Below, one piece after another: positions 672 to 33,854 of a DNA stretch of 64,000 nt (positions within the stretch are counted from its first letter, which is position 1; each line of letters starts with the position of its first letter). The position numbers were made by a program, and so were the translations under genes. The notes beneath the pieces are model-generated. The model searched no databases. It was given only the letters and a program-made list of their open reading frames with translations, and was not told where the DNA came from. The DNA comes from Escherichia phage vB_EcoM_G2285: sequence record MK327933.1; one strand, given 5' to 3'.

Positions 672-2997
<2,326 letters not shown>

Positions 2998-31682: not shown

Positions 31683-32146
31683 AAAGAGTCTCTTAATAGG
31701 TTTAACACATCAATAAATTCAGCTTCGGTTAGTATTGTATCATCTTTTGTTAGACCACTGGCCATGCTGTGCTTCAAAATTTTTCCTTTAGAGGCTTGTA
31801 AGGCATCACGAAACCCCTTGTTTTGGATCGCGGCTTCAAAATACGCATTTGTGTATAATTCTTTCCACGCTTCGGAGTATCTTGAAAACGGAACTCCTAA
31901 CCAGAAGAGAGTCCCACGGTCCTGAGCTCTTGCATAAGACCTTCCAGCTTGCTGTGCGGCCAGTCCTGACAGCCCAAATATACGTCTTTGTTGTTCAACA
32001 TTTTTCACCTTACATCCTTGGAGAAATCCTTCAAGACCTCCGAATTGAATACCATCCATAACAAAAGGCCATTGAGCAAAGTTACTTAATGCACACGACG
32101 GCCACTTGAAATTACTTCTTATTTCTAATTCAGACATCTTTAACAC
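31679..32146 (-). CDS. NADAR/YbiA-like domain protein (30.3 position)
   Basis: 155 aa; LSNFAQWPFVMDG...EGFLQGCK resembles the E. coli YbiA N-terminal signature FSNFAAWPIKVDG...EHYFQAQK. Confidence 0.55.
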   Translation of the reverse strand: MLKMSELEIRSNFKWPSCALSNFAQWPFVMDGIQFGGLEGFLQGCKVKNVEQQRRIFGLSGLAAQQAGRSYARAQDRGTLFWLGVPFSRYSEAWKELYTNAYFEAAIQNKGFRDALQASKGKILKHSMASGLTKDDTILTEAEFIDVLNLLRDSL

Positions 32147-32348
32147 TTATAATTTCAACATCAGCCCAATGACCGTATCCAGGTATACGGTCTTCGATAG
32201 ATAAATTTCTGACATTTTTAGGCATTTTAATTGACGTAACGTATGGTTCTAAACGGTTTTCCGCGTAATATGGAAAAACGTCGGTTACACGATAAGTAAC
32301 TTCAATCATTTCCGTACCAAACAATTTCTGGATTAATTTATTCAACAT
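32130..32348 (-). CDS. Hypothetical protein
   Basis: 72 aa ORF; start overlaps the end of the upstream -1 frame. Confidence 0.45.
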   Translation of the reverse strand: MLNKLIQKLFGTEMIEVTYRVTDVFPYYAENRLEPYVTSIKMPKNVRNLSIEDRIPGYGHWADVEIISVKDV

Positions 32349-32351
32349 GTT

Positions 32352-32576
32352 TCAACCCTTTAATAGGAGATAACTCTTTACCCATACGTATGTCAGAAGT
32401 CCCATCAACCCATTGAACAGCATACGCTTCATTGACAATTCCAGCGGCGGTTTTAAATTCATATACTGCTCAATTTCACATACTGAACCATTTTTATGTT
32501 TCCATAAGCAAATCGTATCAATAGAACCTGCGATACCGTTAGAAACATATTTGCGTTCGAAGTTGGTGTAGTTCAT
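32352..32576 (-). CDS. Hypothetical protein; possible -1 frameshift at the U_UUA_AAA heptamer 32451-32457
   Basis: 74 aa zero-frame ORF with a hydrophobic tail; the -1 frame opens at the heptamer and runs 37 codons into a TAATG overlap with the next gene. Confidence 0.4.
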   Translation of the reverse strand: MNYTNFERKYVSNGIAGSIDTICLWKHKNGSVCEIEQYMNLKPPLELSMKRMLFNGLMGLLTYVWVKSYLLLKG

Positions 32577-32675
32577 TTTATTCTCCAGTTGTTTTATTGA
32601 TTAGGTGGTACAAGTCTATAGTAACACATCCTACAGGAGAGTAAACATCTTTTTTAAACTTTTTCTGCCCTAAAC

Positions 32676-32701
32676 GCACAAAAGGGAGACCGAAGTCTCC
32701 C
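32676..32701 (-). terminator. Intrinsic terminator (GGGAGAC-ttcg-GTCTCCC plus T-run)
   Basis: Perfect hairpin and T-run on minus strand just past the 59-aa ORF stop. Confidence 0.65.
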
Positions 32702-32706
32702 TAAAA

Positions 32707-32886
32707 TTATGCAACAACCTTTCCAAAACGAGAAGCATCATCTCGAAGAACTGCACGTGCTCTGCGCATGATCTTCTCAACTGTTTGATTAATACGATAG
32801 TTCGACCCACGCTTGTATCCAGCGCGTTTAGAGGTACCATCAACTTTCTTTTCAACTGCTTTCTTTGCTTTAGCTTGTTTTGCCAT
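32707..32886 (-). CDS. Small Lys/Arg-rich protein (59 aa)
   Basis: Hand-translated MAKQAKAKKAVEKKVDGTSKRAGYKRG...; below track cutoff; Shine-Dalgarno AAAGAG, ends at the terminator. Confidence 0.45.
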   Translation of the reverse strand: MAKQAKAKKAVEKKVDGTSKRAGYKRGSNYRINQTVEKIMRRARAVLRDDASRFGKVVA

Positions 32887-33148
32887 TATAAATTCTCTTT
32901 AAATGAAAATGCAGGACTTATTGACATTGCCTGCGCAAGCCCTCAAGGGGAACATAGGTTTTGGATATTTAACGACAGGATAACCATAAACCTGTCATCA
33001 TACCAACCACGACTTAGACAGATAACCTTTTCTGACGCGTGATAGTACAAAATACATTCAAGAGGTACACCGTAAAACTGCCGTGGTCTTAAAACTATAA
33101 TGATTCGCAAATCATTAATCAGACAGTTCGACGGCTCCTCGATTTAAC

Positions 33149-33397
33149 TTACTTCAGGGTAATAACAAAATGACGTACTGCTTTACGAGCTGCAGAAGCC
33201 AAAGGCTTAGCATATTTCAGTTCATCTTTTGCTTCCAGTTCAGAGGCCAAAGCTGCCTGTACCGGGTTCAGATGTTTGAAATAACGCAGGATTTCCAGTG
33301 CTTCGGCTTCAACATCAATCGACGCGCCGTAGTTTTCGTGACCGTTATTCCATGCGTTTCGTTGCAGTTCAAGAGCGTGTTGTAATTGTTTAATCAT
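33149..33397 (-). CDS. rIII: rIII lysis inhibition accessory protein
   Basis: 82 aa, near-identical to remembered T4 rIII. Confidence 0.9.
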   Translation of the reverse strand: MIKQLQHALELQRNAWNNGHENYGASIDVEAEALEILRYFKHLNPVQAALASELEAKDELKYAKPLASAARKAVRHFVITLK

Positions 33398-33521
33398 TTT
33401 AAATTCTCAATTCGAGATAATATTTAGTAGCCACGTTCGTCTGAATTTCACCTTCTTTCGACAAGTCTCTCAGTTGTAGGCTACCGCTTAGAAGAGTGTT
33501 CTCTTCATATAGTTATTTATA

Positions 33522-33854
33522 TCACTTATAAAGACACGGAATAGCTTTATAGTGGCATGTTACGAATTTCTGTTTAATTTCTTTAGGTTGTTTAAGTCCC
33601 AAAGCCACAAATGGATGTGGAACATTTCGAATTTGTCCAACTGGTAGTGGAGTCAAATCACCGACTTCAACAAAACCTTCAGGAACATCAGGACCCACAG
33701 AATGAACTACACATAGTTCAGGAACTTCACCTTGAACACGTTTACCAATCACAAGTCCTGATTCGGTAACTTCTTCATCACCTGCTTGAGCGGGTTCAGA
33801 AACCAGAATGACATATTCACCAACAGCACGAATTGGGAGTTGTACTTCAGACAT
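33522..33854 (-). CDS. 31: Co-chaperonin gp31 (GroES analogue)
   Basis: 110 aa, matches remembered T4 gp31. Confidence 0.9.

What the first reader, a model, noticed from the sequence alone, without database searches (positions are those of the whole stretch)
32707..33148. Unlisted 59-aa Lys/Arg-rich ORF and an unusually long 260-bp non-coding stretch downstream of rIII
A clean 59-aa ORF (MAKQAKAKKAVEKKVDGTSKRAGYKRGSNYRINQTVEKIMRRARAVLRDDASRFGKVVA) with a Shine-Dalgarno and a perfect terminator is missed by the 60-aa cutoff. The overlapping 61-aa track ORF in another frame runs through the terminator hairpin and looks spurious. Upstream, 32887-33148 has no ORF in any frame. It contains an 8-bp AT-rich palindrome (TAATGATT-cgca-AATCATTA), a GCAGG...CCTGC hairpin and the near-repeat GGTTATCTGTC / GGTTATCCTGTCG. 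For a T-even genome this gap is long and could hold a small RNA or a regulatory leader. The small basic protein could bind nucleic acid.
Basis: seen in the sequence. Interest (0 to 1): 0.4.

Follow-up and report, generated by a model that had tools for sequence, protein, structure and literature searches.

The report
Structured RNA leader before T4 gene 30.9
The small ORF is the already-annotated T-even phage gene 30.9, but the "empty" 262 bp in front of it is a conserved string of folded RNA modules, one of which forms a pseudoknot in related phages; no RNA database or T4 review I could search describes them.

Summary
The window comes from an RB69-like T-even phage (Mosigvirus). The 59-aa ORF (32707..32886, minus strand) is gene 30.9. 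It is a conserved, very basic "hypothetical protein", annotated in T4 and in more than 1000 phage records, so it is not new. The overlapping 61-aa ORF is spurious.

The rIII-30.9 gap is real. It measured 120-416 bp in all 56 related loci where both genes could be placed. It is a mosaic of independently folding sense-strand RNA modules:
- C: a hairpin.
- D1: a hairpin with an A-rich tail, present in all 51 distinct gap sequences. It forms an H-type pseudoknot in most genera and only a partial one in this window.
- D2: a small GC hairpin.

Covariation supports D1, E and B. The last 114 nt are 95% identical to T4, whereas rIII third codon positions are 69% identical. No module matches any Rfam family.

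Acinetobacter T4-like phages have rIII but no 30.9, and they have no gap. The leader therefore belongs with 30.9.

Function is inferred only. The most likely role is cis control of 30.9 mRNA stability or translation, possibly autogenous. Related phages carry two further uncatalogued modules at this locus, including a 146-nt RNA (R) with 22 compensatory pairs.

The parts
33149..33397 (-). rIII (lysis-inhibition accessory protein, 82 aa), the upstream gene of the transcription unit
   Evidence: ORF; annotated as rIII in relatives
33062..33140 (-). It contains a GGAG (33135-33138), the RegB-type cleavage tetranucleotide.
   Evidence: RNAalifold on 20 distinct sequences gave 22 pairs, 4 with compensatory double changes. 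Nested deletions in KK4, ECO07P1 and L045 remove the interior but keep the outer helices. The window copy folds at -26.2 kcal/mol, z = -2.9.
33049..33076 (-). Weak early-promoter-like string TTTACG-N16-TATTTT that overlaps the 3' side of module B; a candidate only
   Evidence: Read from the sequence and compared with the PST/T4 PeSL consensus TTTACW-N17-TAYWAT (PMC4122927). The sigma-70 scan did not report it.
33003..33047 (-). RNA module C: hairpin CAGA-AAAGGUUA-UCUG (33017-33036), which resembles the D1 hairpin and loop and looks like a degenerate paralogue. T4 lacks it.
   Evidence: the stem is CAGA/UCUG here and CAGC/GCUG in LF82-7, L019 and CC31. In CC31 it sits inside another stem. The fold is weak (-8.7 kcal/mol, z = -1.0).
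32952..33000 (-). RNA module D1, the universal element. Extended hairpin UGAU-GACAGG / CCUGUC-GUUA with loop UUUAUGGUUAU, then an A-rich tail GUUAAAUAUCCAAAA and AACCUAUGU. In most genera the loop pairs with the segment after the tail to form an H-type pseudoknot of up to 9 bp. In this window only GGUU/AACC (4 bp) can pair.
   Evidence: Present in all 51 distinct gap sequences. On 33 distinct sequences 81% of cells pair against 69.5% when shuffled. The covariation score is 0.363 against 0.175 (0 of 500 shuffles reach it), and slid controls reach at most 0.162. Four P1 pairs and four P2 pairs show double changes. The covariance model gives a single hit in the 64-kb window (66.6 bits, E = 3.5e-14). 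It also finds D1 in sequences held out of the model.
32936..32950 (-). RNA module D2: small GC hairpin CCC(C)-UUGA-GGG followed by the conserved CUUG
   Evidence: Seen in nearly all gap sequences, with variable loop and stem length (CCCUUCGAGGG, CCUCUUAGAGGG, CCCUAUGGGG)
32911..32934 (-).
   Evidence: Nine different stem sequences across lineages; 45 of 45 cells paired, and 18 cells changed on both sides against 4.5 in shuffles; covariation 1.228 against 0.326
32887..32910 (-). Ribosome-binding region of 30.9 (AAAGAG Shine-Dalgarno). A small hairpin AUUUUC/GAGAAU could sequester it.
   Evidence: The pairing probability of the SD region is not higher than in shuffled controls (0.45 against 0.47, p = 0.38), so sequestration is not supported.
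32707..32886 (-). Gene 30.9 (T4 synonym 31.-2): 59-aa Lys/Arg-rich protein of unknown function
   Evidence: AlphaFold2 predicts a disordered N-terminus plus one helix at residues 34-54. No Pfam family and no solved relative.
32677..32701 (-). Intrinsic terminator that ends the rIII-30.9 unit (GGGAGAC-UUCG-GUCUCCC-UUUUGUG)
   Evidence: ARNold terminators are annotated at the same place in relatives
32618..32646 (-). Early-type promoter GTTTAC-N17-TACTAT just after the terminator. Together with the terminator it forms a PeSL-type terminator/promoter cassette for the downstream genes.
   Evidence: Sequence; consensus from PMC4122927; homology with relatives breaks just downstream

Best explanation
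SHOWN
- The ORF is gene 30.9 of the T-even phages.
- The 262 bp between rIII and 30.9 carry a chain of independently folding RNA modules on the gene (minus) strand: B, C, D1, D2 and E.
- D1, E and B keep their base pairing through compensatory substitutions in related phages.
- D1 is present in every rIII-30.9 gap examined and nowhere else in this window.
- The 30.9-proximal 114 nt are more conserved than the neighbouring coding sequences.
- The long gap occurs only where 30.9 is present.

INFERRED
- The gap is transcribed as part of the rIII-30.9 message, which ends at the strong terminator after 30.9.
- It works in cis as the 5' leader of 30.9, setting the stability and/or translation of the 30.9 cistron independently of rIII.
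- The most specific version is that the very basic gp30.9 binds the D1 hairpin or pseudoknot (and perhaps the GGUUAU-loop hairpin C) and represses its own synthesis. This would parallel gp32 acting on the gene 32 pseudoknot, or ribosomal proteins acting on their leaders.
- Accessory modules (B and C here; A and R in relatives) are gained, lost, nested and reordered by recombination between co-infecting phages.
For: Identity of the ORF.

Gap always present, 120-416 bp.

D1:
- Found in all 51 distinct gaps.
- P1 and P2 covariation with shuffle and slide controls.
- One hit in the 64-kb window.
- Recovered in the held-out loci L057, L062 and L063 at E of about 1e-9. Absent from Acinetobacter rIII loci and from non-T4 30.9-homologue loci.

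E stem: 9 stem types, 45 of 45 cells paired.

B: 22 pairs, 4 compensatory, with nested deletions that respect the helices.

Strand: G:U and U:G pairs are frequent at several positions (for example UG 12 and 15 in P2, GU 20 and UG 26 in the P1 extension). On the other strand these would be A-C mismatches.

Selection: D1-to-ATG is 94.9% identical between the window and T4. For comparison, rIII is 86.7% identical (68.7% at third positions) and 30.9 is 90%.

Linkage to 30.9 rather than rIII: Acj61 and Berthold have rIII and no 30.9, and the next gene follows within 50 bp or overlaps.

Transcription: T4 30.9 RNA is classed as 'early' in RNA-seq (supplement of PMC9697503).

Protein: gp30.9 is predicted as a disordered basic N-terminus plus one helix, typical of nucleic-acid-binding peptides.

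Precedent: the gene 32 pseudoknot operator (PMC3014915).
Against: - There is no direct evidence for a cis effect or for gp30.9-RNA binding.
- The order of modules differs between genera. D1 lies 75 nt from the start codon here and about 300 nt from it in Klebsiella phages. That fits independent units better than one integrated operator.
- In this window and in all T4-type phages the pseudoknot helix P2 is reduced to 4 bp.
- Sequestration of the Shine-Dalgarno sequence is no better than chance.
- The whole-gap folding z-score is only -1.8.
- gp30.9 homologues in non-T4 phages have different leaders without D1.
- The gp30.9 protein was not classified in T4 proteomics.
Confidence: 0.45

Rival explanations
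1. The modules are trans-acting or processed stable small RNAs, comparable to the T4 stable RNAs C and D. Alternatively they are decoys or ligand-binding RNAs used against the host. In this view they sit in this transcription unit without regulating 30.9.
For: - Modules are self-contained, with their own closing stems, and are reordered, nested and present or absent between close relatives.
- The 146-nt module R in relatives has 22 compensatory pairs and a covarying closing stem.
- R is 90-100% identical across Escherichia, Klebsiella and Enterobacter phages whose rIII proteins are only 67-77% identical to the window's.
- D1 resembles ligand-binding H-type pseudoknots: a hairpin, an A-rich tail, and a loop-to-tail helix.
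Against: - D1 never occurs apart from 30.9.
- There are no promoter or terminator pairs around individual modules.
- No known riboswitch, ribozyme or sRNA family matches.
- R shows no sequence similarity to T4 rnaC or rnaD.
- The gap shows no sequence similarity to E. coli genomes or plasmids.
- No data on processing exist.
Confidence: 0.25
2. The structures are transcription or processing punctuation rather than a regulatory operator. Module B would be a PeSL-like weak terminator followed by an early promoter, and E a leaky attenuator. The other hairpins would shield a long untranslated stretch from Rho, RNase E and RegB, so that 30.9 is expressed at a different level from rIII.
For: - B is a hairpin followed by UAGUUUUAAG, and then by TTTACG-N16-TATTTT. 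This resembles the PST/T4 PeSL consensus (PMC4122927).
- E is followed by a U-rich tract.
- In CC31 and LC53 a 7-8 bp stem followed by UUUUAUUA precedes the RBS.
- A GGAG lies at the 5' end of B.
- A true PeSL lies right after 30.9, and homology breaks next to it.
Against: - The consensus scan found no promoter or terminator in the gap on the gene strand.
- B is absent from many phages that keep the gap.
- Covariation of the D1 pseudoknot and its conserved single-stranded tail is not explained by generic shielding.
- The E stem is only 5 bp with a 14-nt loop in this window.
Confidence: 0.2
3. The gap is decayed or unannotated coding sequence: small ORFs, or an N-terminal extension of 30.9 like the old 97-aa '11.1 kDa' T4 entry.
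For: Several depositors-62-aa ORFs inside the gap. The old Swiss-Prot T4 entry reads from the ATGATG before D1 into 30.9 (P0036).
Against: - The called ORFs differ in frame and position between genomes.
- 1-nt indels separate close relatives inside the modules: AGAAAAGG/AGAAAAAGG, CCTGTCG/CCTGGTCG, CCAAAACC/CCAAAAACC, TTTAAAGAG/TTTAAAAGAG.
- In this window a stop lies 5 codons upstream of the 30.9 ATG, and the ATGATG frame stops after 10 codons.
- The substitution pattern is paired, not codon-like.
Confidence: 0.04
4. The element acts at the DNA level, as a replication origin, a DnaA-box-like site (TTATCC) or a recombination hotspot.
For: One record (ATK47) labels 10 bp just upstream of 30.9 as an 'ori type 2 repeat'. 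The D1 loop contains TTATCC, which resembles part of a DnaA box (comparison made from my own knowledge of the consensus).
Against: - Frequent G:U pairs make the structure strand-specific and therefore RNA-like.
- TTATCC is not kept in all lineages (for example GAGAACCGG in L051 and L054).
- The known T4 origins are elsewhere (my own knowledge, not checked here).
Confidence: 0.03

Closest known systems
T4 gene 30.9 (synonym 31.-2; PHROG 1427; Swiss-Prot 'Uncharacterized 11.1 kDa protein in Gp30-rIII intergenic region')
   Same: The ORF is this gene. It has the same position between rIII and the 30.8 region, about 90% nucleotide identity to T4, and the invariant core SKRAGYKR-SN-RI...RAR.
   Different: Nothing substantive. 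The 97-aa Swiss-Prot form is a T4-specific over-extension that the window sequence cannot encode.
Gene 32 mRNA autoregulatory pseudoknot of T-even phages
   Same: It is an H-type pseudoknot in the 5' leader of a T-even gene that encodes a nucleic-acid-binding-type protein. It is followed by an A/U-rich segment containing UUAAA (PMC3014915). This is the model for the proposed autogenous control.
   Different: - There is no sequence similarity.
- D1 has a long A-rich third loop, and structured hairpins (D2, E) lie between it and the RBS instead of an unstructured UUAAA-repeat tract.
- Its distance to the start codon varies from about 75 to 300 nt.
- P2 is degenerate in T4-type phages.
- Binding by gp30.9 is untested.
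PeSL terminator/early-promoter cassettes of T4-type phages (Arbiol 2010; Comeau 2014)
   Same: They are short conserved intergenic stem-loop cassettes associated with indels and modular shuffling. A canonical example (terminator plus GTTTAC-N17-TACTAT) lies directly after 30.9 in the window. Module B has a hairpin followed by a promoter-like string.
   Different: PeSLs are repeated many times per genome and are defined by a terminator plus a promoter. D1, D2, E, A and R are single-copy, have no promoter, and are defined by covarying RNA helices.
Small H-type pseudoknot riboswitches (preQ1-I, SAM-II/V)
   Same: The topology of D1 in non-T4-type phages matches: a short hairpin, an A-rich 3' tail, and a tail-proximal segment that pairs with the hairpin loop.
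   Different: - No Rfam match even in a 176-nt search space.
- The tail is about 16 nt, much longer than in these riboswitches.
- No associated metabolic gene is present.
- P2 is lost in T4-type phages.
T4 stable RNAs C and D (species 1 and 2)
   Same: They are phage-encoded structured RNAs of unknown function, cut from a longer transcript. They are the only annotated non-tRNA RNAs of T4.
   Different: They sit at a different locus (the tRNA cluster), and module R shows no detectable sequence similarity to them by nhmmer (blastn-short against all gap sequences gave only chance 9-12-nt matches).

Membership tests
gp30.9 protein family (PHROG 1427) | Significant sequence match to the family profile | tested here: met
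   phrog_1427 at E = 1.5e-30 covering residues 1-57; 113 homologous clusters
gp30.9 protein family (PHROG 1427) | Conserved position downstream of rIII, followed by a terminator | tested here: met
Any Rfam 15 RNA family (4227 models) | Covariance-model match to the gap or to related gaps | tested here: not met
   Only chance-level hits, far below the gathering scores
H-type pseudoknot translational operator (gene 32 type) | Two helices, with the hairpin loop pairing to a downstream segment | tested here: inconclusive
   Both helices covary across 33 sequences. In the window itself only 4 of the 9 P2 pairs can form.
H-type pseudoknot translational operator (gene 32 type) | Unstructured A/U-rich tract with UUAAA repeats running from the pseudoknot to the RBS | tested here: not met
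   One UUAAA lies in the D1 tail. The D2 and E hairpins lie between D1 and the RBS.
H-type pseudoknot translational operator (gene 32 type) | Specific binding and repression by the protein encoded downstream | not testable with these tools
   Requires EMSA or footprinting and reporter assays
PeSL (promoter-early stem-loop) cassette | Terminator-like stem-loop directly followed by an early promoter (TTTACW-N17-TAYWAT) | tested here: inconclusive
   For module B: the hairpin with UAGUUUUAAG is present, but the promoter string is TTTACG-N16-TATTTT and the scan does not report it. For 32618-32701, after 30.9, the feature is met (outside the gap).
PeSL (promoter-early stem-loop) cassette | Many similar copies per genome, at the borders of variable genes | tested here: not met
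   D1 is single-copy in 64 kb. R is single-copy in 407 genomes.
Intrinsic (Rho-independent) terminator, for the element after 30.9 | GC-rich stem-loop followed by a U tract | tested here: met
   8-bp GC-rich stem, UUCG loop, UUUUGUG tail; -19.4 kcal/mol, z = -5.5
SD-sequestering translational hairpin | SD region paired more than expected from composition | tested here: not met
   Mean pairing probability 0.45 against 0.47 in shuffles, Wilcoxon p = 0.38, 32 distinct 3' ends

The most novel reading that the evidence does not exclude
The rIII-30.9 spacer of T-even phages, T4 included, would be a hotspot of previously uncatalogued, horizontally exchanged functional RNAs. These are the universal D1 pseudoknot, modules B and C, the E hairpin and, in relatives, the small hairpin A and the 146-nt multi-helix RNA R. 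They would work with the basic peptide gp30.9 as a small RNP, or act as ligand-sensing or host-targeting RNAs (for example decoys for host RNases or defence sensors), rather than merely as an mRNA leader.
Probability: 0.25. Interest if true: 0.8.

Novelty: new variant of a known kind. Interest (0 to 1): 0.55.

Why it matters
T4 is among the most closely studied genomes, yet this 244-bp spacer in T4 (262 bp here) carries no annotation. Neither it nor genes rIII and 30.9 are mentioned in the two T4 reviews I could search.

If the covariation holds up, T-even phages carry at least one universal structured RNA (D1) and several accessory ones that are absent from Rfam. They are tied to a conserved small basic protein of unknown function. 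That gives a concrete handle on gene 30.9: test autogenous control and test RNA binding.

It also offers a second possible example, after gene 32, of a pseudoknot operator in T4. In addition, it shows a clear case of RNA-module shuffling in a phage mRNA leader. The accessory 146-nt RNA R, found in about 400 genomes, is a candidate new RNA family in its own right.

Tried and rejected
- **Rfam searches.** I searched the window region, eight related loci and two short gap segments at permissive E-values. Only chance hits came back.
- **Promoter and terminator scan.** The consensus scan of 32400-33600 found nothing on the gene strand inside the gap.
- **SD sequestration.** I tested it with partition-function pairing probabilities against shuffles. 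It was not above chance, so I dropped the claim although small UCC/GGA-type hairpins can be drawn.
- **Mimicry of host RNA.** blastn of the gap against E. coli genomes and against plasmids gave no match.
- **Homology of module R to T4 stable RNAs C and D.** None.
- **gp30.9 function.** No Pfam family and no solved relative; the best match was SlmA at E = 0.13, which is meaningless. AlphaFold2 gives only one helix, so I did not run a fold search.
- **Suspected frameshift in 30.8.** Rejected. The window carries unrelated ORFs in that slot.
- **Extra copies of D1 in the window.** None.
- **Mini-ORF from the conserved ATGATG before D1.** The frame is not conserved. The ATGATG is better explained as the 5' strand of an extended P1 that pairs with GUUA.
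- **Literature.** Neither the spacer nor genes rIII and 30.9 are mentioned in PMC3014915 or PMC2988021. Searches for 'gp30.9' and '30.9' found only a citation to Driukas & Nivinskas 2003 (not held) and genome-annotation mentions.
Full report
**Source and gene map.** The window matches RB69-like T-even phages of the genus Mosigvirus (species mar005p1) at 98-99% over 32600-33450. All genes in this stretch are on the minus strand. In transcription order they are dCMP deaminase, 31.1, gp31 (33522..33854), rIII (33149..33397), the finding's gap (32887..33148), the 59-aa ORF (32707..32886), and a hairpin with a T-run.

**The ORF.** The 59-aa ORF is gene 30.9 (T4 synonym 31.-2).
- It is annotated as 'gp30.9 conserved hypothetical protein' in T4 NC_000866 (130364-130540) and in close relatives of the window.
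- tblastn finds it in 1003 phage records.
- It hits PHROG 1427 (unknown function) at E = 1.5e-30 and has no Pfam family.
- A profile search of 5.8 billion proteins finds 113 clusters. All named hits come from phage records and nearly all are called hypothetical.
- The old Swiss-Prot entry 'Uncharacterized 11.1 kDa protein in Gp30-rIII intergenic region' (97 aa; P0036) is the same gene, read from an upstream ATGATG. The window cannot encode that extension because a stop lies five codons before the ATG.
- The 61-aa TTG ORF in another frame is a mechanical artefact.
- The protein has about 18 basic and 5 acidic residues. AlphaFold2 with a 45-sequence alignment gives a disordered N-terminal half and a single helix at residues 34-54 (pLDDT 88-90 there). 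No solved relative exists.
- In T4 time-course omics the 30.9 RNA is classed 'early' and the protein is unclassified (supplement of PMC9697503).
- The ORF half of the finding is therefore correct but already known.

**The gap is a constant feature linked to 30.9.**
- In 56 related loci from INPHARED and IMG/VR where both genes could be placed, the rIII-30.9 spacer measured 120-416 bp, giving 51 distinct sequences with the window.
- Two Acinetobacter T4-like phages (Acj61 and Berthold, subfamily Twarogvirinae) have rIII but no 30.9. There the next gene follows within 50 bp or overlaps rIII.
- The spacer therefore travels with 30.9, not with rIII.

**The gap is a mosaic of modules.** I read all gaps in the direction of transcription. 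They are built from a limited set of short conserved blocks that are present or absent, reordered, and sometimes nested. The window contains:
- B (33062-33140)
- C (33003-33047)
- D1 (32952-33000)
- D2 (32936-32950)
- E (32911-32934)
- the ribosome-binding region (coordinates)

Compared with most mar005p1 relatives, the window, phage moha and F2 lack a 32-bp block A directly after the rIII stop codon. T4 has A, B, D1, D2 and E but lacks C. Many Klebsiella, Enterobacter and Serratia phages, and some Escherichia phages, carry an additional block R of about 146 nt.

**D1, the universal module.**
- D1 occurs in all 51 distinct gaps.
- In the window it is a hairpin GACAGG/CCUGUC, extended by UGAU/GUUA to 10 bp (-12.5 kcal/mol, z = -2.2). 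The loop is UUUAUGGUUAU. An A-rich tail GUUAAAUAUCCAAAA follows.
- In most genera the 5' part of the loop is complementary to the nucleotides right after the tail. Examples are UUAGUAGUU/AACUACUAA, UUGAAAGUU/AACUUUCGG, UUGUUGGUU/AACCAACGG and UUGUGAG/CUCACAA. This gives an H-type pseudoknot.
- I built a 33-sequence alignment using sequence anchors only and counted pairs. 81% of cells pair, against 69.5% after shuffling. 70 cells changed on both sides, against 32. The covariation score is 0.363 against 0.175, and 0 of 500 shuffles reach the observed score. All slid registers reach at most 0.162. Four P1 pairs and four P2 pairs show double changes.
- The P1 extension is compatible with this but does not itself covary.
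- In the window, and in all T4, Mosigvirus, Dhakavirus and Gaprivervirus phages, only GGUU/AACC of P2 can form. Here the element is a hairpin with a conserved tail and at most a vestigial pseudoknot.
- A covariance model of D1 gives one hit in the 64-kb window (66.6 bits; the next best is 14.4).
- The model finds D1 in sequences not used to build it (L057, L062, L063). It finds nothing in the Acinetobacter loci or in loci of distant 30.9 homologues from other phages.

**E, B, C and D2.**
Nine different stem sequences all pair (45 of 45 cells). 18 cells changed on both sides, against 4.5 in shuffles. Covariation is 1.228 against 0.326.
RNAalifold on 20 distinct copies gives 22 pairs. Compensatory changes occur in the palindrome (UAAUGAUU/AAUCAUUA to UAUCGAUU/AAUCGGUA), in CCGU/ACGG to CCAU/AUGG, and in the next helix. 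Three natural deletions remove inner parts but keep the outer helices. Diversity is low, so this evidence is weaker.
- C: a hairpin whose stem changes from CAGA/UCUG to CAGC/GCUG. I regard it as a degenerate copy of D1. Support is thin.
- D2: a 3-5 bp GC hairpin with variable loops.

**Strand, selection and coding.**
- G:U and U:G pairs are common at several positions of D1 and E. The structures therefore make sense only on the gene strand, as RNA.
- Between the window and T4, the 114 nt from D1 to the ATG are 94.9% identical. rIII is 86.7% identical (68.7% at third positions) and 30.9 is 90%. Against Dhakavirus and Gaprivervirus the leader is 96.5% and 90.5% identical, while 30.9 is 71% and 65%.
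- Single-base indels inside the modules separate close relatives. The small ORFs that some depositors call in the gap differ in frame and place. The gap is therefore non-coding and under purifying selection.

**What is not supported.**
- No Rfam family matches any module, even in very small search spaces.
- The consensus scan sees no promoter or terminator inside the gap on the gene strand. A weak TTTACG-N16-TATTTT follows the B hairpin and resembles the PeSL promoter consensus of Comeau et al.. It is only a candidate.
- A small hairpin that would sequester the Shine-Dalgarno sequence can be drawn in most lineages. Its pairing probability is not above shuffled controls (0.45 against 0.47, p = 0.38).
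- The whole-gap folding z-score is modest (-1.8).
- There is no similarity to E. coli genomes or plasmids.

**Mechanism.**
- Shown: conserved, strand-specific, covarying RNA structure in a spacer that is linked to 30.9.
- Inferred: the spacer is transcribed with rIII and 30.9 up to the strong terminator at 32677-32701. It acts in cis on the 30.9 cistron.
- I think the most likely specific mechanism is control of 30.9 mRNA stability or translation through D1 and the D2/E hairpins. Autogenous binding by the basic gp30.9 is an attractive version, by analogy with the gene 32 pseudoknot (PMC3014915). I give this 0.45.
- The shuffled order of modules and the autonomy of R argue for independent functional RNAs (0.25).
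- A punctuation role (terminator/promoter cassette, attenuator, shielding from Rho and RNases) gets 0.2.
- Coding or DNA-level explanations are unlikely.

**Novelty.** Gene 30.9 is known. The leader structures are, as far as I could check, not catalogued. Neither the spacer nor genes rIII and 30.9 are mentioned in two T4 reviews on transcription and post-transcriptional control. Full-text searches for 30.9 return only a citation of an expression study that I could not read (Driukas & Nivinskas 2003). From memory (not verified here), Truncaite et al. 2006 describe the terminator/promoter region downstream of 30.9, not this spacer. Structured mRNA leaders and pseudoknot operators are a known kind of element. 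The single-copy, modular, reshuffled architecture is a new variant of it.

Noticed in passing
Related loci, e.g. L010 about 1098-1243 (minus strand of the locus), L013 about 920-1065, L014, L021-L023, L025-L027, L029, L031, L033, L036, L038, L042, L047, L051, L052, L054-L057, L062. Absent from the window and from T4.: Module R is a structured RNA of about 146 nt in the rIII-30.9 spacer of many T4-like phages. RNAalifold gives 44 pairs, 22 with compensatory changes, plus a covarying closing stem and a GNRA-type hairpin. It occurs in 407 phage records, with 408 matches in total, and is never annotated as RNA. It is 90-100% identical across Escherichia, Klebsiella and Enterobacter phages. Its presence differs between otherwise matching spacers (L062 has it, L063 does not). 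It has no Rfam match and no similarity to T4 rnaC or rnaD. It is a candidate new RNA family.
   Followed up: partly
Related loci directly after the rIII stop codon or after D1 (e.g. L001, L004, L006/T4, L013, L017, L018). Deleted in the window between 33140 and 33148.: Module A is a block of about 32 nt (UUUUAGGUGAUUCGCUACCUUAGUGCGGCUAGAAAA). Its inner stem changes CGC/GCG, CAC/GUG, UGC/GCA and AGC/GCU around a conserved loop UACC(U/A)(U/A)AGU. Where A follows D1, its 5' strand is the same nucleotides as the 3' strand of the D1 pseudoknot, so the two pairings would be mutually exclusive. I read this by eye and did not count it formally.
   Followed up: partly
window 32130-32576 (minus strand), with the cassette at 32618-32701: Where relatives have gene 30.8 (122 aa), the window has two unrelated small ORFs: 74 aa at 32352..32576 and 72 aa at 32130..32348. 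Homology with phages moha and WFbE185 ends just after the start codon. The breakpoint lies next to a PeSL-type cassette, made of the 30.9 terminator plus the early promoter GTTTAC-N17-TACTAT. This fits the modular-shuffling model of PMC4122927.
   Followed up: partly
L058-L061, L064, L065 (metagenomic contigs): True but distant gp30.9 homologues (core TSKRAGYKRK-N-RV) occur outside the T4-like gene context. One pair sits next to a Shufflon_N-domain gene and an HMG-CoA reductase gene. Each has its own sigma-70-like promoter (TTGACT...TATACT) and a 75-100-nt leader with a hairpin, but no D1.
   Followed up: partly
Public records matching window 32707-32886 and 32887-33148: Annotation errors are propagating. 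gp30.9 or the spacer is labelled '1,4-alpha-glucan (glycogen) branching enzyme, GH-13-type' in several records, 'putative 11.1 kDa protein' in others, and gp31.1 is called 'tail fiber protein'. ATK47 labels 10 bp upstream of 30.9 as an 'ori type 2 repeat' without visible basis.
   Followed up: no
window 32911-32934 and 32980-32990: The conserved E-loop sequence CAAUAAG is complementary, with one mismatch, to the T4-type D1 loop UUUAUGG. This could be a long-range loop-loop contact that replaces the lost pseudoknot helix in T4-type phages. Both segments are invariant in that clade, so covariation cannot test it. L050 has CAAUAAG without UUUAUGG.
   Followed up: no
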